A stretch of 7,358 nt of DNA, taken from a virus. Its lineage: Duplodnaviria > Heunggongvirae > Uroviricota > Caudoviricetes. Below, piece by piece: positions 1,946 through 6,199 of this stretch. Positions within the stretch are counted from its first letter, which is position 1; the number at the start of each line of letters is the position of its first letter. The stretch covers positions 1 to 7,358 of IMG/VR virus record IMGVR_UViG_2703718800_000016; one strand, given 5' to 3'. Both the position numbers and the translations under genes were made by a program. Below the pieces are notes generated by a model that had not been told where the DNA came from, ran no database searches, and saw only the letters and a program-made list of their open reading frames with translations.

Positions 1946-2324
1946 CGGGTATCACAGATATGACAAACACGAAAAAAGCGGCCCCGATATGGAGCCGCCT
2001 TTCTGAACAATTAACCCGCTGCGCCTTATGTGTATGTGATCCCAAACATAAGCACGGGGATGATAGCCGCTATCAGGCTGGTGGGCAATGCAATCAGTCT
2101 GGTTCAGTTCGTTGCCATACCTGCAATGAGCGCTTTTCCCTGTACTCTTTAAGGAATTGCTCAAGGGCAAAAGCACATGGTGCGAATCTTTCTGATTCAT
2201 GCTCTATCTTTCTGCGCCGTCTTTTTCGTGCAGGTGATGTTTTTTCGGTTGATTCTTCGTTGGTCATTGTGTGCGCCTGTAAAGCAATGCGCCGTAGTAC
2301 CTCACACCACGGCGCTGGTGATGG

Positions 2325-2504
2325 TTACTCCTGCTCTTTGGCCTTGCGGCGCTGGCGGCGTTTGATTTCGCCTTTAACGGCAGTAACTATAAATTGCGCT
2401 TTGCTTTCACCTTCATCTAAATTTTTTTCTAAGTCTGCAACAACATCATGCGGGAATCTGGCATTTAACTGTTGCGACTTATTATTTGTTGAACCTGTTG
2501 CCAT
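2325..2504 (-). CDS. Ribbon-helix-helix (Arc/MetJ-like) DNA-binding protein, putative repressor
   Basis: 59-aa product from the internal ATG at 2504 (rc of CAT 2502-2504): MATGSTNNKSQQLNARFPHDVVADLEKNLDEGESKAQFIVTAVKGEIKRRQRRKAKEQE. It resembles the Arc repressor fold pattern (strand QQLNARFP, helix HDVVADLEKNL, helix SKAQFIVTAVKGEIKRRQ). Good Shine-Dalgarno GAGG 8 nt upstream on the minus strand (AGAGAGGATTCAGTA-ATG). The ORF track extends the frame to 2669 (114 aa), but that N-terminal extension looks non-protein-like and would leave no promoter space. Confidence 0.6.
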   Translation of the reverse strand: MATGSTNNKSQQLNARFPHDVVADLEKNLDEGESKAQFIVTAVKGEIKRRQRRKAKEQE

Positions 2505-2687
2505 TACTGAATCCTCTCTAAGTTGGTGCGATTCAGTATACACAAAAAAATTCAGAGAAAAAGGCTTGAAGTGCGATTCACATGCTGATAGGTTAAAAAC
2601 AGATGGTGCGATGCACCAAATAACAACGCCCCGCAGTGCGGGAACACATACGGGGCGTCTAACCAACAACGTAAACTAGGAGCCGTT
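2505..2687. promoter_or_regulatory. Divergent intergenic control region with three 10-bp direct repeats (putative RHH operator) and hairpins
   Basis: GTGCGATTCA at 2526-2535 and 2571-2580 (identical) and GTGCGATGCA at 2606-2615, spaced 45 and 35 bp. The third copy sits in the palindrome GGTGC-GAT-GCACC. An 8-bp inverted repeat ACGCCCCG (2625-2632) / CGGGGCGT (2652-2659) encloses CCCGCA-G-TGCGGG. The region lies between the divergent RHH gene and icd-like gene 1. Confidence 0.45.
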
Positions 2688-2885
2688 ATGGTTGCCGTAA
2701 ATCATATACCACACCTTGTACACACACAAACGGCCTTTGTGTGGCGTTTTCTGGCACTGAGTGCCGGAGAATCTCAAATCATCCACGTAACCGCCTGGAC
2801 GGAACGCGAAGCGCGTAACCGTTGCCCGTCCGGTTGTGTTGCTGTATTCGCCGCCCGTATTCGTCAGGGGTCACATCATGCGTAA
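2688..2885 (+). CDS. Host cell division inhibitor Icd-like protein (paralog 1)
   Basis: 65-aa product ending ...FVWRFLALSAGESQIIHVTAWTEREARNRCPSGCVAVFAARIRQGSHHA. The motif set W-R-F ... VTA-x-TEREAR ... F-x-ARI-x-QG matches what I remember of Icd-like proteins of P1 and P4-like prophages. Shine-Dalgarno TAGGAG 5 nt before the ATG. Confidence 0.75.
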   Translation: MVAVNHIPHLVHTQTAFVWRFLALSAGESQIIHVTAWTEREARNRCPSGCVAVFAARIRQGSHHA

Positions 2886-3171
2886 AAACCGCTTGCAAAA
2901 AATTATCACGGGGCTGTATGCTTCCCGCGTCACCCACATGGTGACCGGGTTTGACAGCCTGAATACTACAGCGGACAGCCGCTTACATTCCGATATGCGG
3001 TTTTTTTGTGTCCGTAAACCTACCCATACCCGCATTATGGCGGGGCGTAACGGGGGAGCCTTTGCGCTCGCTGGTTCCTGTAGTGCCAGTCTGTCAACCC
3101 TGTTACGTCTCGCCACCATGTTTGACAGCGTAGTAGCGAGACTCCTTAATTTCACTACAGGAGCCTTTCAC

Positions 3172-3345
3172 ATGGCTGTATCCACACGCCCTTATTTTAT
3201 CTGGCGCTTCATGCAGTGCCATGAAAAACAAACCTCACTCTTTACCGTCACGGCTGCCACTGAGCGCGAAGCACGCGCGCAGCTGCCGCACGCACATCTG
3301 ATTTTTGTCGCCCGTATTCGTCAGGGGGAAACCTATGCACAATAA
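3172..3345 (+). CDS. Host cell division inhibitor Icd-like protein (paralog 2; may instead be the C-terminal domain of a longer ORF starting at 2878)
   Basis: 57-aa product MAVSTRPYFIWRFMQCHEKQTSLFTVTAATEREARAQLPHAHLIFVARIRQGETYAQ aligns with paralog 1 (FIWRF / VTAATEREAR / FVARIRQG). AGGAG at 3159-3163 lies 8 nt before ATG 3172. A candidate promoter TTGACA (3122-3127) - 17 bp - CTTAAT (3145-3150) has a perfect -35 but a weak -10. The same frame is open back to ATG 2878, so a 155-aa fusion cannot be excluded. Confidence 0.6.
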   Translation: MAVSTRPYFIWRFMQCHEKQTSLFTVTAATEREARAQLPHAHLIFVARIRQGETYAQ

Positions 3346-3565
3346 AACCACACCGGACGCAGCAGAAGAAGCAATGCAAATACTGATACGTGCGCTCGTT
3401 GATGTTACCCACATGGTGGAGATTATGGAGAGAAAATCACAGTCGGAGCACGACAAAAGAAAACTTAAAACAATAAAAATAATTGCCAAAAACTCGCTGA
3501 TAAAAGTTACAGACATCCTTAATGAGGACATTAAAAGAATAAGGGAGAAAATTTGTGATGCATAA
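3335..3565 (+). CDS. Hypothetical small protein (AT-rich cassette gene 1; lysine-rich, predicted helical)
   Basis: 76 aa: MHNKTTPDAAEEAMQILIRALVDVTHMVEIMERKSQSEHDKRKLKTIKIIAKNSLIKVTDILNEDIKRIREKICDA. Shine-Dalgarno AGGGGG (3323-3328) 6 nt before ATG 3335; overlaps the stop of icd-like paralog 2 by 11 nt. The antisense ORFs here are hydrophobic low-complexity artifacts. No motif recognised. Confidence 0.55.
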   Translation: MHNKTTPDAAEEAMQILIRALVDVTHMVEIMERKSQSEHDKRKLKTIKIIAKNSLIKVTDILNEDIKRIREKICDA

Positions 3566-3785
3566 AATCCCTTTTGAAGTATTAATCCACTCTGAAAACG
3601 CATTAATTAAAGCACGCGAAATGAATGCGTTGTTAATTAAATTAATTGAAGTGCCGGAAGGTGGTGAGGAATCAGGTGTATTAATGTTTGCAGCCATTCA
3701 GACATTACTATCGCCTGTTATTGATGAACTGGATAAGGCAATGGCAATTCACGAAAATAATAACGCGCCCCACACCGGAGAATAA
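3558..3785 (+). CDS. Hypothetical small acidic protein (AT-rich cassette gene 2)
   Basis: About 75 aa from ATG 3558 (the track starts at GTG 3555): MHKIPFEVLIHSENALIKAREMNALLIKLIEVPEGGEESGVLMFAAIQTLLSPVIDELDKAMAIHENNNAPHTGE. GGGAG lies about 10 nt upstream. There is an 8-nt start/stop overlap with gene 1 (ATGCATAA), suggesting translational coupling. Strongly acidic. No motif recognised. Confidence 0.55.
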   Translation: MHKIPFEVLIHSENALIKAREMNALLIKLIEVPEGGEESGVLMFAAIQTLLSPVIDELDKAMAIHENNNAPHTGE

Positions 3786-3790
3786 AAATA

Positions 3791-4090
3791 ATGAAACTTA
3801 AATATTCTGGCTTAACTGCCAGTGGCAACACTCACCCTAAATTTACGCGCGGTGATATTTACCGCGACCAGTACGGCGGCACGGTAATGATTAAGGGCGT
3901 GGCGGGACGGTGCGTAACTTACCGCCGTGAAGGTTACGAATATGATTGCGTGATGCCTGTTTATCAGTTCCGGCGTGATTTTTCTCTGGTACAGGCAGCG
4001 CCCCGCAGTAAACCAACCAGCAGGGAGAAAGCACGCGCCAATATTCAGGAAATAAGAAAGATGTTGAATGTATTCAGGGGTAAAAAATGA
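3791..4090 (+). CDS. Hypothetical small protein translationally coupled to the primase gene
   Basis: 99 aa (MKLKYSGLTASGNTHPKFTRGDIYRDQYGGTVMIKGVAGRCVTYRREGYEYDC...). GGAG lies 10 nt before the ATG. Its stop overlaps the primase start (ATGA at 4087-4090). GC content is normal, about 53% in a hand-counted 60-nt sample. By position it is analogous to the small genes preceding alpha in the P4 replication operon; that is inference only. Confidence 0.6.
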   Translation: MKLKYSGLTASGNTHPKFTRGDIYRDQYGGTVMIKGVAGRCVTYRREGYEYDCVMPVYQFRRDFSLVQAAPRSKPTSREKARANIQEIRKMLNVFRGKK

Positions 4091-5835
4091 AACTTGCACC
4101 GAACGTAAAAAAACAACCACGCGGAATAAAACACAAAGACACAGAGGTAATTATTTTCGCGGGTAGTGATGCGTGGGCACATGCAAAACAGTGGCAGGAG
4201 CAGGACGGCCCCGCATCCGGCGATAATGTGCCGCCTGTGTGGATTGGGCCAAATCAGCTTGCCGAACTTGATGCACTGAAAATTGTTCCTGATGGAAAAA
4301 AACGCGTAAGGCTGTACCAGGCCGGAGAACTGGATTTGGTGGAGACCAAAAAGATTGGTCAGAAGCTGGCGGCGGCAGATATTCAGGACGCAAATTTTTA
4401 CCCCGAAGGAATGCACGTCCAGAAGTGTGAAAACTGGCGGCGCTATCTGAATGCTGAGCGTGAAAATATTGCCGCAGGGCTTACCATGCCGGAGCAGAAA
4501 AATACGCAACTGGCACAAATGGCAGACAGTGAGCGCGCGCAGCTGCTTGCCGAGCGCTTTGATGGCGTTTGTGTGCATCCGGAAAGTGAAATCGTTCACG
4601 TATGGCGCGGCGGGGTATGGTGTCCGGTCAGCACAATGGAACTTAGCCGCGAAATGGTGGCGATCTATTCAGAGCACAGGGCCACTTTCAGCAAGCGCGT
4701 AATCAATAACGCCGTGGAAGCGTTAAAAGTTATTGCCGAACCAATGGGCGAGCCGTCCGGCGATTTGTTGCCGTTCGCCAATGGTGCGCTTGACCTGAAA
4801 ACGGGGGAATTTTCCCCGCACACGCCGGAGAACTGGATCACCACGCACAACGGCATTGAGTACACGCCACCAGCACCAGGGGAGAATATATGCGACAACG
4901 CGCCAAACTTTCATAAATGGCTTGAGCACGCAGCCGGAAAAGACCCGCGCAAGATGATGCGTATATGTGCCGCGCTGTACATGATTATGGCGAACCGGTA
5001 CGACTGGCAGATGTTTATTGAGGCCACCGGAGAGGGCGGTAGCGGTAAAAGTACATTCACGCACATAGCCAGCCTTCTGGCAGGGAAACAGAACACGGTA
5101 AGCGCTGAAATGACCTCACTTGATGATGCTGGTGGACGTGCGCAGGTTGTCGGGAGTCGTCTTATCGTCCTGGCTGACCAGCCGAAATATACAGGCGAAG
5201 GAACGGGCATCAAGAAAATCACGGGCGGCGACCCCGTGGAAATAAACCCGAAATATGAGAAGCGTTTTACGGCGGTAATCAGGGCGGTGGTGCTGGCTAC
5301 CAACAATAACCCGATGATATTCACCGAGCGGGCCGGAGGTGTGTCACGCCGTCGGGTGATTTTCCGGTTCGACAACATTGTAAGGGAGGACGAAAAAGAC
5401 AAGGATTTGCCGGAGAAGGTCGCGGCTGAAATCCCCGTAATTATCCGTCGCTTGCTGGCTAATTTTGCCGACCATGAAAAGGCACGGGCTTTATTACTGG
5501 AACAGCGCGACGGTGATGAAGCTCTGGCAATAAAGCAACAGACGGATCCGGTTATTGAGTTTTGCCAGTTCCTGAATTTTCTGGAGGAAGCACGCGGCCT
5601 GATGATGGGCGGCGGTGGCGATTCAGTGAAGTACACGACCAGAAACAGCCTTTACCGCGTCTATCTGGCGTTTATGGCATACGCAGGCAGGAGCAAACCG
5701 CTAAACGTGGCTGAGTTCAGCAAGGCCATGAAGCCAGCGGCAAAAGTTTACGGACATGAATATATTACGCGGAGAGTTAAGGGAGTAACGCAGACCAACG
5801 CAATTACAACTGATGATTGTGACGCGTTTTTATAA
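4087..5835 (+). CDS. Replication initiator: primase-associated SF3 helicase (P4-alpha / D5-like C-terminal NTPase; PICI Pri-Rep-like)
   Basis: 582 aa. Walker A GEGGSGKST and Walker B-like RLIVLADQP lie in the central region, matching the phage/plasmid primase P4-family C-terminal helicase domain. The classic P4 alpha primase motif EGYATA is absent, so the N-terminal domain is of uncertain type. Shine-Dalgarno GGGG 6 nt before the ATG. It is immediately followed by the iteron cluster. Confidence 0.9.
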   Translation: MKLAPNVKKQPRGIKHKDTEVIIFAGSDAWAHAKQWQEQDGPASGDNVPPVWIGPNQLAELDALKIVPDGKKRVRLYQAGELDLVETKKIGQKLAAADIQDANFYPEGMHVQKCENWRRYLNAERENIAAGLTMPEQKNTQLAQMADSERAQLLAERFDGVCVHPESEIVHVWRGGVWCPVSTMELSREMVAIYSEHRATFSKRVINNAVEALKVIAEPMGEPSGDLLPFANGALDLKTGEFSPHTPENWITTHNGIEYTPPAPGENICDNAPNFHKWLEHAAGKDPRKMMRICAALYMIMANRYDWQMFIEATGEGGSGKSTFTHIASLLAGKQNTVSAEMTSLDDAGGRAQVVGSRLIVLADQPKYTGEGTGIKKITGGDPVEINPKYEKRFTAVIRAVVLATNNNPMIFTERAGGVSRRRVIFRFDNIVREDEKDKDLPEKVAAEIPVIIRRLLANFADHEKARALLLEQRDGDEALAIKQQTDPVIEFCQFLNFLEEARGLMMGGGGDSVKYTTRNSLYRVYLAFMAYAGRSKPLNVAEFSKAMKPAAKVYGHEYITRRVKGVTQTNAITTDDCDAFL

Positions 5836-5849
5836 TTTTTTGTAAAAGC

Positions 5850-6073
5850 CCTCTACCCCATCTACCTGAATGAAATAAACGCATATTATTCAACATGATA
5901 AGTGGGTAGAGGGCTAGGTAGAAGGCTAATAAAACCTCTCTACCTCTTCTACCATGATTAAGATCGTTTGTGAGGGGCGGGTAGAGGATGGGTAGAGGGC
6001 CACGAAAGCCCTCTACCCATCTGAAAGCCGCGCCATTACTGACATGAAAGATGATTAGGTAGAGAGGTAGAGG
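5850..6073. repeat. Iteron cluster / putative origin of replication
   Basis: Eleven copies of the 8-mer GGTAGAGG or its complement CCTCTACC (core GGTAGA), arranged as adjacent pairs of alternating orientation at 5850, 5859, 5905, 5917, 5937, 5946, 5980, 5991, 6010, 6058 and 6066. They are separated by AT-rich spacers such as 5867-5904. Two longer units AAAGCCCTCTACCC-CATCT recur at 5845 and 6005. The cluster sits directly downstream of the primase/helicase stop. Confidence 0.7.
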
Positions 6074-6199
6074 AGGTGCACCACAACCTAAAACTTTTTA
6101 AACACGAGGGTAAAAATAAAAATGCACACATCAGGAAGATTTAACAAATCACTCAAAAAACGCAGAGACAGAACAGAACCGAAATATCGCGCGTTAGAC

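What the first reader, a model, noticed from the sequence alone, without database searches (positions are those of the whole stretch)
2688..3345. Tandem diverged Icd-like paralogs sharing a perfectly conserved 19-bp segment, with an in-frame open linker
Two Icd-like genes lie in tandem. Their proteins are only partly similar, yet their 3-prime ends share an identical 19-mer CGCCCGTATTCGTCAGGGG (2852-2870 and 3309-3327), which encodes ARIRQG and also supplies the ribosome-binding site for the next overlapping ORF in each case. The frame between them (2878-3171) is open and in frame with paralog 2, so paralog 2 may be either a 57-aa protein with its own ribosome-binding site and promoter or the C-terminal domain of a 155-aa protein. 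The repeated junction could act as a recombination or insertion scar; the AT-rich cassette begins exactly at the second copy.
Basis: seen in the sequence. Interest (0 to 1): 0.4.

Follow-up and report, generated by a model that had tools for sequence, protein, structure and literature searches.

The report
P4/P1-type RNA immunity cassette between Icd genes
The "open linker" between the two small Icd-like genes holds a known phage immunity switch, a C4/CI antisense RNA with its promoter and target sites, and the shared 19-mer is the family's usual gene-end/ribosome-restart junction, so the locus is a new example of a known phage P4/P1 design.

Summary
Two Icd-like ORFs (2688-2885, 3172-3345) share an exact 19-mer, and frame 2878-3171 is open and in phase with the second.

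The interpretation missed the main feature. The linker is an RNA immunity cassette homologous to phage P1 immI and phage P4 immunity:
- a promoter aligned with P1 P51b (2893-2922);
- an isrK/seqA-like leader with targets a1 and b1 (2929-3007);
- a C4 antisense RNA (3033-3120, Rfam 72.3 bits);
- targets a2 and b2, with b2 covering the Shine-Dalgarno of Icd #2.

Loop and target sequences co-vary across 48 related cassettes.

The open frame is conserved. It has no stop in 32 of 34 unique cassettes, while the other two frames always have stops. This matches P4, where kil (shown here to be Icd-like) is the end of the longer ORF eta that spans the cI RNA. So the 57-aa and 155-aa products are probably both made, as nested genes.

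The 19-mer (ARIRQG codons plus a GGGG Shine-Dalgarno) is conserved across the family and is followed by at least ten different downstream sequences. Twelve relatives lack the cassette and join Icd#1 body to Icd#2 tail at this block. It therefore works as a translational-coupling joint and a homologous-recombination boundary, not as a special scar.

Verdict: new member of a known kind, modest interest.

The parts
1960..2679 (+). Long open frame (239 codons) that fills the alpA-to-Icd#1 interval and runs antisense to the YlcI/YnfO gene. It stops inside the Icd#1 Shine-Dalgarno. Candidate upstream part of an eta-like 'keep-translating' ORF chain.
   Evidence: In 28 unique related loci the longest + strand open frame covers a median 97.6% of this interval, against 31% on the - strand and 28% in shuffles. 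No Pfam or PHROG match. Called as a gene in the source assembly.
2325..2507 (-). YlcI/YnfO-family small protein, transcribed divergently from Icd#1. Candidate repressor of the Icd#1 promoter.
   Evidence: NF041551, 63.3 bits. Its N-terminal sequence variants co-vary one-to-one with the repeated operator-like 9-mers in the intergenic region across loci.
2526..2615 (.). Three operator-like direct repeats GTGCGAT(T/G)CA at 2526, 2571 and 2606. They overlap a putative promoter TTGAAG (2566-2571)-17-TAGGTT (2589-2594) that would drive Icd#1.
   Evidence: the repeat finder family D4. The repeats change in concert between loci (L001 GTGGCTGACA, L003 GTGTGTTTCA) while TTGACG-17-TAATAT/TAACAT stays at the same position. 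The promoter is inferred from the alignment and was not called by the consensus scan.
2628..2656 (+). Conserved GCCCCG...CGGGGC hairpin in the Icd#1 leader. Role unknown.
   Evidence: The stem is conserved and the interior varies in L001-L003.
2688..2885 (+). Icd-like paralog 1 (65 aa), with Shine-Dalgarno AGGAG at 2678-2682.
   Evidence: NF033153, 64.8 bits. The same gene, 89-99% identical, is the only Icd gene in 12 relatives that lack the cassette.
2852..2870 (+). 19-mer copy 1: the ARIRQG codons plus a GGGG Shine-Dalgarno for the ATG at 2878 (start of the eta-like ORF).
   Evidence: The ATG overlapping the Icd stop is present in all 30 junctions that are followed by a C4 cassette.
2878..3345 (+). 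155-codon eta-like ORF. It starts overlapping the Icd#1 stop, runs through the promoter, leader, C4 and targets, and ends as Icd#2.
   Evidence: The frame has no stop in 32 of 34 unique cassettes, whereas the other two frames have a mean of 6.7 and 4.0 stops and are never open. PGAP annotates the homologues as 154-155-aa 'Icd-like' proteins. The P4 counterpart is eta.
2893..2922 (+). Internal promoter TTGCAA-18-TATGCT, homologous in position to P1 P51b (P1c4) and P4 PLE.
   Evidence: The -10 aligns with the annotated P1 -10 TATAGT, immediately before the same TCC(A/C)CCG..hairpin. The other cassette type conserves TTGATC-18-TATGAT. Position 1 of the Rfam isrK model falls at 2929, 7 nt after the -10. 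The site scores 8 of 12 consensus matches, so the simple scan did not call it.
2929..3007 (+). isrK/seqA-like leader: 5' hairpin, a1 (TTGACAG, 2951-2957), b1 (TACTACAG, 2964-2971), a weak stem (2979-2982 / 2997-3000) and a U7 run (3001-3007).
   Evidence: Rfam isrK 33.7 bits (GA 50, E 1.8e-4) and c4-a1b1 42.1 bits at 2916-2965 (GA 46.7, E 3.4e-8). The a'-a1 duplex is -19.3 kcal/mol, reached by 0 of 500 shuffles.
3033..3120 (+). C4/CI-type antisense immunity RNA. The b' loop is at 3073-3085 and the a' single strand at 3087-3100.
   Evidence: Rfam RF01695, 72.3 bits (GA 45, E 4e-13), full model length. About 80% DNA identity to the annotated P1 c4 gene. MFE -45.4 kcal/mol with the family fold.
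3122..3165 (+). Targets a2 (TTGACAG, 3122-3128) and b2 (CACTACAGGAGCC, 3153-3165). b2 contains the Icd#2 Shine-Dalgarno AGGAG at 3159-3163.
   Evidence: Inverted repeats I9 and I17. The b'-b2 duplex is -23.8 kcal/mol, reached by 0 of 500 shuffles. Changes are compensatory in relatives.
3172..3345 (+). Icd-like paralog 2 (57 aa), the kil/icd equivalent. It is the first ORF after the C4 RNA and its ribosome-binding site is masked by C4.
   Evidence: NF033153, 55.7 bits. Same position as P1 icd and P4 kil, which scores 73.9 bits on NF033153.
3309..3327 (+). 19-mer copy 2: the ARIRQG codons plus a GGGG(G) Shine-Dalgarno for the ATG at 3335.
   Evidence: The same type of junction occurs in P1 (icd-ant1, CAGGGGGGTTTATGA).
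3335..3565 (+). First downstream ORF (76 aa, unknown function), overlapping the Icd#2 stop. It heads an uninterrupted chain: 3558-3785, DUF4222 at 3791-4090, primase at 4087-5835.
   Evidence: The same ORF follows the single Icd gene in L003, L040 and L042.

Best explanation
The segment is the early-control region of a small P4-like / PICI-like satellite island. The island carries int, alpA, a YlcI-family gene, Icd, a primase and SSB, and lies next to tRNA-Pro/yejM.

Between the two Icd-like genes lies a self-contained RNA-immunity cassette of the phage P1 immI / phage P4 cI type. A promoter at 2893-2922 starts a transcript at about 2929. That transcript carries target sites a1/b1, then the C4 RNA, then target sites a2/b2, then Icd#2.

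Processed C4 RNA pairs through its a' and b' elements with a1/b1 and a2/b2. The b'-b2 duplex covers the Icd#2 Shine-Dalgarno, so Icd#2 is not translated. By polarity and loss of translational coupling, the downstream genes (orf76, orf75, DUF4222, primase) then stay silent. This is the immune state.

A second, upstream promoter (about 2566-2594) carries operator repeats and is probably controlled by the divergent YlcI-family protein. It transcribes Icd#1. The last codons of Icd#1, which form the 19-mer, carry a Shine-Dalgarno and are followed by an ATG that overlaps the stop codon. Ribosomes finishing Icd#1 can therefore restart on the 155-codon ORF that runs in frame through the whole cassette into Icd#2.

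As shown for P4 eta, ribosomes travelling over the targets and the RNA gene should make these transcripts insensitive to C4 and to Rho-dependent termination. Both a 57-aa and a 155-aa product are therefore expected, each from a different transcript.

The 19-mer is present twice because the cassette brings its own Icd gene, and every Icd gene in this family ends with the same coupling block. The same conserved block, and other conserved parts of the gene, act as homology for gaining, losing and stacking cassettes.

Shown here: the RNA family match, the complementarity and its covariation, the conservation of the open frame, the homology to P1 and P4, and the presence/absence variants.

Inferred: the promoters, translational coupling, ribosome shielding, the role of Rho, and toxicity of the Icd products.
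For: C4 RNA:
- C4 RNA scores 72.3 bits over the full model; the a1b1 and isrK models match just upstream.
- Window 2943-3130 is 75-82% identical in DNA to the c4 region of P1, P7 and D6, where c4, a1, b1, a2, b2, icd and ant1 are annotated in the same order.

Pairing and covariation:
- b'-b2 forms 13 bp at -23.8 kcal/mol and a'-a1 forms a duplex of -19.3 kcal/mol; 0 of 500 shuffles reached either value.
- Window and L001/L002 differ by GAC>AGC in both a1 and a2, matched by GTC>GCT in a'. L001 also has C>G in b1 and b2, matched by G>C in b'.
- 48 cassettes give 20 loop combinations with matching targets.
- The cassette's own loop 7-mer is found in both flanks in 27-30 of 42 unique modules. Foreign loops are found in 0 of 1328 and 0 of 1558 tests.

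P4 parallel:
- In P4 the C4 model (74.9 bits) and the isrK model (60.8 bits) lie inside the old 'cI 137 aa' ORF.
- The translation of that ORF is Pfam Phage_ASH followed by NF033153 Icd-like (73.9 bits), and the frame is open for 210 codons.
- PMC10111431, summarising Forti et al. 1999, states that Kil is a truncated Eta, that a promoter internal to eta gives the immunity-sensitive transcript, and that Eta translation prevents termination. It also notes that the C4 and isrK profiles hit Gram-negative PICIs.

Open frame:
- The Icd frame has no stop in 32 of 34 unique cassettes. The other two frames carry 227 and 136 stops in total and are never open.
- The ATG overlapping the Icd#1 stop is present in all junctions that precede a cassette.

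Cassette as an optional unit:
- Among 86 sources, 47 have a single Icd gene and no C4. Twenty of these were checked with Rfam and none had C4. Twenty have icd-C4-icd and 10 have two C4 units.
- Twelve loci are the exact 'window minus cassette' form.
Against: - The isrK (33.7 bits) and c4-a1b1 (42.1 bits) matches are below Rfam gathering scores (50 and 46.7).
- The leader's terminator stem is weak in this cassette type (4 bp with a 14-nt loop). RNAfold prefers other small hairpins and the terminator scan did not call it.
- Both proposed promoters are sub-consensus and were not called by the scan.
- The b'-b1 and a'-a2 duplex energies taken alone are no better than shuffles. Their support comes only from covariation.
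- The related loci come from one biased, phylogenetically non-independent sample (IMG/VR hits to an Icd alignment), so counts such as 32 of 34 overstate independent evidence.
- No expression data exist for this element. Translation of the 155-codon ORF and its protective effect are extrapolated from P4.
- P1 itself lacks the open frame.
Confidence: 0.75

Rival explanations
1. ORF 2878-3345 encodes one genuine 155-aa two-domain protein (Ash-like N-terminus plus Icd-like C-terminus) whose amino-acid sequence is what matters. The RNA-family match would then be secondary or embedded, and the 57-aa form would not be a separate gene.
For: - The frame is open in 32 of 34 cassettes.
- PGAP and GenBank call the long ORF.
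- A Pfam family, Phage_ASH, covers this region in the other cassette type and in P4.
- PMC10111431 treats such ORFs as 'Bro network' proteins.
Against: - The window's linker translation matches neither Phage_ASH nor any Pfam, NCBIfam or PHROG family.
- Between cassette types, several indels that are not multiples of 3 shift the reading phase, and only 72% of aligned columns share phase. The frame stays open but the peptide is not conserved.
- Sequence change follows RNA pairing rules, with compensatory a/b changes.
- Icd#2 has its own strong Shine-Dalgarno and ATG exactly where P1 icd and P4 kil have theirs.
- P1 has stops in this frame.
Confidence: 0.12
2. Only the 57-aa Icd#2 is made. The upstream open frame is an inherited accident with no function.
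For: - P1, the best-studied relative, works without the open frame.
- The region is GC-rich structured RNA, which lowers stop-codon frequency.
- The related loci are not independent.
Against: - The other two frames of the same sequences carry a mean of 4-7 stops and are never open, while the Icd frame is open in 32 of 34, including cassette types only about 50% identical and P4.
- The same openness extends over the whole alpA-Icd interval, at a median 97.6% coverage.
- According to PMC10111431, nonsense codons in P4 eta were shown to cause termination.
Confidence: 0.08
3. The 19-mer is a dedicated recombination or insertion site (att-like core or scar) at which cassettes are inserted by a site-specific mechanism.
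For: - Twelve cassette-less relatives join Icd#1 body to Icd#2 tail exactly at this block.
- At least 10 different sequences follow the block in relatives.
- The repeat flanks the cassette directly.
Against: - The block is the conserved C-terminal coding sequence plus Shine-Dalgarno of essentially all Icd-like genes sampled (82 unique DNAs), including single-copy ones.
- Several cassette-less loci carry a synonymous variant (GCAAAAATCCGCCAGGGA) at the same junction.
- Other breakpoints exist: hybrids at the TEREAR codons (P0033-P0039), a cassette inserted after about codon 25-30 of Icd (L001 type), and a deletion between a1 and a2 (L088).
- The block has no dyad symmetry, the only recombinase nearby is the island integrase, and the junction has no local structure.
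Confidence: 0.05

Closest known systems
Phage P4 immunity region (PLE - seqA - cI RNA - seqC - kil nested in eta - replication genes up to the alpha primase)
   Same: - A C4-family RNA (P4 74.9 bits, window 72.3 bits) preceded by an isrK/seqA-like leader and a promoter internal to a long ORF.
- The first translated gene after the RNA is an Icd-like small protein (P4 kil 73.9 bits on NF033153) whose Shine-Dalgarno lies in the downstream target.
- That gene is the end of a longer in-frame ORF spanning the RNA gene.
- The long ORF starts coupled to an upstream gene.
- A primase operon follows, in a P4-type integrase/alpA island.
   Different: - The long ORF here starts at the stop of an additional, complete Icd-like gene (Icd#1) that has its own operator-bearing promoter. 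In P4 it starts at the alpA/vis homologue.
- A further 239-codon open frame and a divergent YlcI-family gene lie between alpA and Icd#1.
- The RNA part is of the P1 sequence type (about 80% identity to P1, same a specificity TTGACAG), not the P4/'Ash' type. Its translation does not match Pfam Phage_ASH.
- The leader terminator is weak.
Phage P1/P7 immI operon (P51 - a1 b1 - c4 - a2 b2 - icd - ant1/ant2)
   Same: - Same order of elements.
- 75-82% DNA identity from a1 to a2.
- Identical a elements.
- b2 overlaps the icd Shine-Dalgarno.
- icd ends in a CAGGGG..ATG junction that overlaps the start of the next gene.
   Different: - The b specificity differs: window CUGUAGU/ACUACAG versus P1 CACUAAC/GUUAGUG.
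- The downstream genes are small unknown ORFs plus a primase, not the antirepressor.
- P1 has no upstream Icd copy and no open frame through c4.
Salmonella Gifsy-1 isrK - orf45 - anrP locus (PMC4825925)
   Same: - An isrK-type leader with a terminator, read-through into a short ORF whose translation is needed for the next gene.
- Pairing between the isrK middle part and a region about 130 nt downstream.
   Different: - The isrK match here is below the gathering score (33.7 versus 50).
- In Gifsy-1 the short RNA activates translation in trans, and no C4 processing was described.
- The downstream genes differ.
NCBIfam NF033153 Icd-like / P1 Icd cell-division inhibitor / P4 Kil
   Same: Both window ORFs pass the curated cut-off and share the W-R-F, T-E-x-E-A-R and A-R motifs with P1 Icd.
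   Different: Function is untested here. The two copies are only 45% identical, and recombinant forms between the two types are common.

Membership tests
Rfam RF01695 C4 antisense RNA (P1 c4 / P4 CI) | Covariance-model score at or above the gathering threshold over the full model. | tested here: met
   72.3 bits against GA 45, model positions 1-87 of 87, at 3033-3120 +.
Rfam RF01695 C4 antisense RNA (P1 c4 / P4 CI) | Two exposed elements (a', b') complementary to sites on the same transcript, upstream (a1, b1) and downstream (a2, b2). | tested here: met
   a1 2951-2957, b1 2964-2971, a2 3122-3128, b2 3153-3165. Compensatory changes are seen in relatives.
Rfam RF03163 c4-a1b1 and RF01394 isrK (leader with targets) | Score at or above the gathering threshold. 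| tested here: not met
   42.1 bits against 46.7 (E 3.4e-8) and 33.7 bits against 50 (E 1.8e-4). The match is homologous by alignment to P1 but below the curated cut-offs.
P1 immI operon | b2 overlaps the ribosome-binding site of an icd gene immediately downstream of c4. | tested here: met
   The 13-nt duplex covers AGGAG at 3159-3163, with the ATG at 3172. Icd#2 scores 55.7 bits on NF033153.
P1 immI operon | An antirepressor (ant) gene translationally coupled to icd. | tested here: not met
   The downstream ORFs are phrog_5146 and phrog_2196 (unknown function), DUF4222 and a primase. No ANT or KilA domains were found.
P4 kil/eta nested-gene immunity design | The small Kil/Icd-like ORF is the 3' part of a longer in-frame ORF that spans the immunity RNA gene and the internal promoter. 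| tested here: met
   ORF 2878-3345. The P4 equivalent was verified. The frame is conserved in 32 of 34 cassettes.
P4 kil/eta nested-gene immunity design | The long ORF is translationally coupled to an upstream gene transcribed from an upstream (late) promoter. | tested here: inconclusive
   The ATG at 2878 overlaps the Icd#1 stop and has GGGG 7 nt upstream. This arrangement is present in all cassette-preceding junctions. Coupling and the upstream promoter are inferred only.
P4 kil/eta nested-gene immunity design | Translation of the long ORF prevents Rho-dependent termination (timm). Immunity acts by transcription termination. | not testable with these tools
   This needs transcript mapping and nonsense mutants. 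It is known for P4 from Forti et al. 1999, as summarised in PMC10111431.
NCBIfam NF033153 Icd-like protein | HMM score above the curated cut-off (25 bits). | tested here: met
   64.8 bits (Icd#1) and 55.7 bits (Icd#2).
NCBIfam NF033153 Icd-like protein | Inhibits cell division or is toxic when expressed. | not testable with these tools
Known for P1 Icd (annotation) and P4 Kil.
Pfam PF10554 Phage_ASH | HMM match to the translation of the region upstream of Icd. | tested here: not met
   No hit at E<=1 for 2878-3171 or 2791-3342. The family does match the other cassette type and P4, always over the isrK+C4 DNA.

The most novel reading that the evidence does not exclude
In these satellites the long + strand frames may be kept open only so that ribosomes can shield induced transcripts from the immunity RNA and from Rho. 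These frames are the 155-codon ORF through C4 and the 239- to 805-codon frames that fill the whole alpA-Icd interval antisense to the YlcI genes. On this reading the selection is for translatability, not for any protein, and Pfam Phage_ASH would be the protein shadow of an RNA gene. Icd-like ORFs would then act as interchangeable 'landing pads' placed after each internal promoter. Their invariant 3' coupling block would double as the joint that lets immunity cassettes of different a/b specificity be plugged in, stacked (two C4 units in 10 of 86 loci) or lost.
Probability: 0.3. Interest if true: 0.55.

Novelty: new member of a known kind. Interest (0 to 1): 0.3.

Why it matters
It corrects the reading of a very common enterobacterial island region, which has matches in 1305 of 5426 complete E. 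coli genomes. The stretch that reference annotation labels a 155-aa 'Icd-like protein' contains an antisense immunity RNA gene, its promoter and its targets.

It links three separately described systems (P1 c4-icd, P4 cI-kil/eta, Gifsy-1 isrK) into one modular design. It also gives a concrete, testable explanation for why the Icd gene ends are identical: they are the translational-coupling joint reused at each cassette boundary.

The natural variants found here are ready-made material for studying satellite immunity and cross-immunity. They are cassette-less loci, loci with two cassettes of different specificity, and a C4 deletion that retains the targets.

Tried and rejected
- I looked for an antisense partner of the 19-mer. 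No match with up to 3 mismatches exists on either strand other than the two copies, so it is not an RNA target of something in the window.
- I tested for local RNA structure at both junctions. Both fold less stably than shuffles (z +1.7 and +1.1), so a sequestering hairpin is rejected.
- I scanned the linker and the long ORFs against Pfam, NCBIfam and PHROGs. Nothing matched the window's linker.
- The genome-contig scan with the Icd alignment returned only one locus and was of little use. The IMG/VR scan supplied the comparison set.
- The simple promoter/terminator scan found none of the elements proposed here. They rest on alignment to P1 and P4.
- An attempt to read Forti et al. 1999 (PMC94026) failed because the paper is not held. 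A loose literature query for P4 eta/kil returned noise.
- I considered that C4 might also target the Icd#1 ribosome-binding site or the GGGG of 19-mer copy 1. Only partial, G-U-rich, generic anti-Shine-Dalgarno pairing was found, so this was not pursued.
- I considered that single-Icd loci might hide a divergent C4. Rfam at gathering threshold found none in 20 representatives.
Full report
**1. Observation**

The window carries two ORFs, 2688-2885 (65 aa) and 3172-3345 (57 aa). Both match NCBIfam NF033153 'host cell division inhibitor Icd-like protein', at 64.8 and 55.7 bits against a cut-off of 25. They are 45% identical as proteins and 56% identical over aligned codons.

The 19-mer CGCCCGTATTCGTCAGGGG occurs exactly at 2852-2870 and 3309-3327. 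It occurs nowhere else with up to 3 mismatches, and none of 200 shuffles gave a match. It encodes ARIRQG with six identical codons. Elsewhere only 6 of 17 shared degenerate residues use the same codon, so synonymous sites are otherwise saturated.

In both copies the GGGG lies 6-7 nt before an ATG (2878, 3335) that precedes the Icd stop codon. The frame from 2878 to 3345 is open and in phase with the second gene.

**2. What the linker is**

An Rfam scan finds three matches in the linker:
- a full-length C4 antisense RNA (RF01695) at 3033-3120, 72.3 bits against gathering score 45;
- the 'a1, b1 targets of C4' motif at 2916-2965, 42.1 bits against 46.7;
- an isrK match at 2929-3007, 33.7 bits against 50.

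BLAST against phage genomes shows 75-82% DNA identity of window 2943-3130 to the c4 region of P1, P7, D6 and relatives. In the P1 record, promoter P51b, a1, b1, c4, a2, b2, icd and ant1 are annotated in exactly this order, and the window aligns element by element.

The expected intramolecular complementarities are present:
- The C4 loop b' (3073-3085) pairs over 13 nt with 3153-3165, which contains the Icd#2 Shine-Dalgarno AGGAG, 9 nt before the ATG at 3172. The duplex is -23.8 kcal/mol, reached by 0 of 500 shuffles.
- The single-stranded a' (3087-3100) pairs with 2946-2962 at -19.3 kcal/mol, also reached by 0 of 500 shuffles.
- The a' core heptamer is complementary to TTGACAG at both 2951-2957 and 3122-3128.

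**3. Covariation**

Close E. coli relatives show textbook compensatory change:
- The window has a1/a2 TTGACAG and a' CTGTCAA. L001 and L002 have TTAGCAG and CTGCTAA.
- L001 changes b1 and b2 from ACTACAG to ACTAGAG (C>G), and b' from CTGTAGT to CTCTAGT.

In 86 sequences (window, P1, E. coli loci and 80 IMG/VR loci) I found 49 C4 genes by nhmmer. Adding P4 and dropping those too close to a contig end leaves 48 usable cassettes with 20 different a'/b' combinations, each with matching targets. A cassette's own loop heptamer is found in both flanks in 27-30 of 42 unique modules. Heptamers from other types are found in 0 of 1328 and 0 of 1558 tests. The antisense interactions are therefore real and define specificities, as for P1 versus P7.

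**4. The open frame**

Several results bear on this.
- The frame in phase with the downstream Icd gene is stop-free from 150 nt upstream of C4 to the Icd ATG in 32 of 34 unique cassettes. The other two frames carry a mean of 6.7 and 4.0 stops and are never open. The exceptions are P1 and L013.
- The set includes a second, strongly diverged cassette type and phage P4.
- Between cassette types there are several indels that are not multiples of three. Only about 72% of aligned columns share reading phase, so the frame is kept open but the peptide is not kept.
- Pfam Phage_ASH matches the translation of the isrK+C4 DNA in the other cassette type and in P4, but not the window's version.

Phage P4 gives the precedent:
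- Its CI RNA is an Rfam C4 hit (74.9 bits) and its seqA leader an isrK hit (60.8 bits).
- Both lie inside the old 'cI 137 aa' ORF, whose translation is Phage_ASH followed by an NF033153 Icd-like domain (73.9 bits).
- The frame is open for at least 210 codons.

That Icd-like end is P4 kil, and the long frame is eta. PMC10111431 summarises Forti et al. 1999 as follows:
- Kil is a truncated Eta.
- Full-length Eta is translated only from an upstream late promoter and is coupled to the alpA homologue.
- Eta translation prevents termination.

The same paper notes that the C4 and isrK profiles hit Gram-negative PICIs.

**5. Promoters**

- TTGCAA (2893-2898)-18-TATGCT (2917-2922) aligns with the annotated P1 promoter P51b, TTGACC-17-TATAGT. 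Its -10 sits immediately before the same hairpin.
- The other cassette type has TTGATC-18-TATGAT, and P4 has TTGCCT-18-TATAGT at the same place.
- Position 1 of the isrK model falls at 2929.
- Upstream of Icd#1, TTGAAG (2566-2571)-17-TAGGTT (2589-2594) overlaps three GTGCGAT(T/G)CA repeats. These repeats change in concert between loci while the hexamers stay in place.

Neither promoter reaches the threshold of the consensus scan. Both are inferences from alignment.

**6. The 19-mer**

Across 82 unique Icd-like DNA sequences the block GCC CGT ATT CG(T/C) CAG GGG is nearly invariant. Its codon usage is more uniform than at the equally conserved T and A positions of the TEREAR motif.

An ATG or GTG and the Icd stop always follow the block within about 15 nt. 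After that, at least ten unrelated downstream sequences occur. P1 (icd-ant1, CAGGGGGGTTTATGA) and P4 (kil-epsilon) have the same type of junction. There is no antisense partner and no local structure.

I therefore read the block as the conserved C-terminal codons fused to the Shine-Dalgarno of a translational-restart junction. Copy 1 feeds ribosomes from Icd#1 into the eta-like ORF. Copy 2 feeds them from Icd#2 into orf76 and the replication genes.

**7. Recombination**

Architectures among the 86 sources:

| Architecture | Count |
|---|---|
| icd-C4-icd (the window's type) | 20 |
| Two C4 cassettes in series | 10 |
| Icd fragment-C4-icd | 3 |
| C4-icd only (including P1) | 6 |
| Single Icd gene, no C4 | 47 |

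For the single-Icd group, Rfam at gathering threshold confirmed absence of C4 in 20 of 20 representatives.

Twelve cassette-less loci have an Icd gene whose body is 89-99% identical to Icd#1. It joins, at the ARIRQG block, to the tail of Icd#2 and the same orf76. In L003, L040 and L042 the next 400 nt are 95-99% identical to the window. The window and these loci thus differ by presence or absence of the 457-bp unit bounded by the repeat.

Other breakpoints also exist:
- hybrids at the TEREAR codons (P0033-P0039);
- cassettes inserted after about codon 25-30 of Icd (L001 type);
- a precise deletion between a1 and a2 that removes C4 (L088).

Some cassette-less loci carry a synonymous variant of the block. 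This pattern fits homologous exchange at conserved sequence, not a dedicated site.

**8. Context**

The window comes from assembly GCA_001606675.1, contig LOGV01000023.1. It is a small island beside yejM; its close relative L001 lies beside yejM and tRNA-Pro. Gene order is: int, alpA, [YlcI on the opposite strand], Icd#1, cassette, Icd#2, two small ORFs, DUF4222, a D5_N/DUF5906 primase, iteron-like repeats, SSB. On the + strand, ORFs from alpA to the primase follow one another with overlaps or gaps of at most 15 nt.

**9. Verdict**

The locus is a further member of the P1 immI / P4 cI-kil-eta class of RNA-based immunity modules, which has already been noted in Gram-negative PICIs. Its local peculiarities are worth a note but are not a new kind of system:
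- an extra Icd gene with its own operator-controlled promoter serving as the launch point of the eta-like ORF;
- P1-type RNA in a P4-type nested-gene setting;
- modular gain, loss and stacking of cassettes.

Noticed in passing
window 1946-2687 (ORF 1960-2679); L075 1751-4168; 28 related loci: The whole interval between alpA and the first Icd gene is one open + strand frame: median 97.6% of 685-2230 nt, against 31% on the - strand and 28% in shuffles. The recognisable genes there (YlcI/YnfO family) are on the opposite strand. In the window the two strands share wobble positions. The translations look junk-like (Cys/Ser-rich, no family hits). L075 has an 805-codon frame containing a tandem duplication of the whole regulatory region.
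   Followed up: partly
window 2325-2507 (-) and 2526-2615: Variants of the YlcI/YnfO-family protein N-terminus co-vary one-to-one with the repeated operator-like 9-10-mers in the YlcI-Icd intergenic region. Examples: GTGCGATTCA with MATGSTNNKSQQLNARFPH, GTGGCTGAC with MATKAVNAKSKKLEARVPH, GTGTGTTTC with MATANKNAKSQLTTVRVPL. This suggests the protein is the cognate repressor of the Icd#1 promoter, although linkage by descent is not excluded.
   Followed up: partly
L001 4029-4692; also L008, L009, L015, L019, L020, L022, L024, L025, L032: Ten related loci carry two complete C4 cassettes in series, about 478 bp apart. Their a'/b' loops and matching targets differ (for example L001: AGGCTAA/TTAGCCT and CTGCTAA/TTAGCAG). 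This amounts to stacked immunity specificities, each followed by its own Icd gene.
   Followed up: partly
L088 1460-1660 (Logan SRR14117789 contig): A natural variant has a precise deletion between the a1 and a2 direct repeats. It removes b1, the leader terminator and the whole C4 gene, but keeps the promoter, one a site, b2 and Icd#2. It is a C4-less, target-bearing element. It rests on a single contig, so an assembly artefact is not excluded.
   Followed up: partly
L001 3825-4238, L086 (P4) 8168-8584, window 2878-3345: There are annotation conflicts. Pfam PF10554 Phage_ASH always maps onto isrK+C4 DNA. PGAP names the 155-aa ORF over the RNA gene an 'Icd-like protein', and calls a pseudogene over another C4 an 'ash family protein'. 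PHROGs label Icd-like families 'transcriptional repressor', apparently inherited from the old P4 'cI protein' annotation.
   Followed up: partly
window 5836-6080: A dense set of direct and inverted GGTAGAGGG / CCCTCTACC-type repeats lies immediately downstream of the primase gene. It is probably the island's iteron-type replication origin (seen).
   Followed up: no
window 2628-2656: A GCCCCG...CGGGGC hairpin sits in the Icd#1 leader. The stem is conserved while the interior varies between L001, L002, L003 and the window. It has no U-run and no known role.
   Followed up: no
window 3055-3063 vs 3160-3168 and 2679-2684: The 5' arm of the first C4 hairpin (GGAGCCTTT) is identical to the Icd#2 ribosome-binding region (GGAGCCTTT) and close to that of Icd#1 (GGAGCCGTT) (repeat finder D3 and D17). 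This could be chance, or a decoy or duplication remnant.
   Followed up: no
proteins P0033-P0039: Recombinant Icd proteins have an Icd#1-type N-terminal half and an Icd#2-type C-terminal half, with the breakpoint at the TEREAR codons. Exchange between the paralog types therefore happens inside the gene as well as at its end.
   Followed up: no
window 3350-3800: GC content drops to 29-42% over the two small unknown ORFs (phrog_5146, phrog_2196). The same two ORFs follow the single Icd gene in cassette-less relatives.
   Followed up: no
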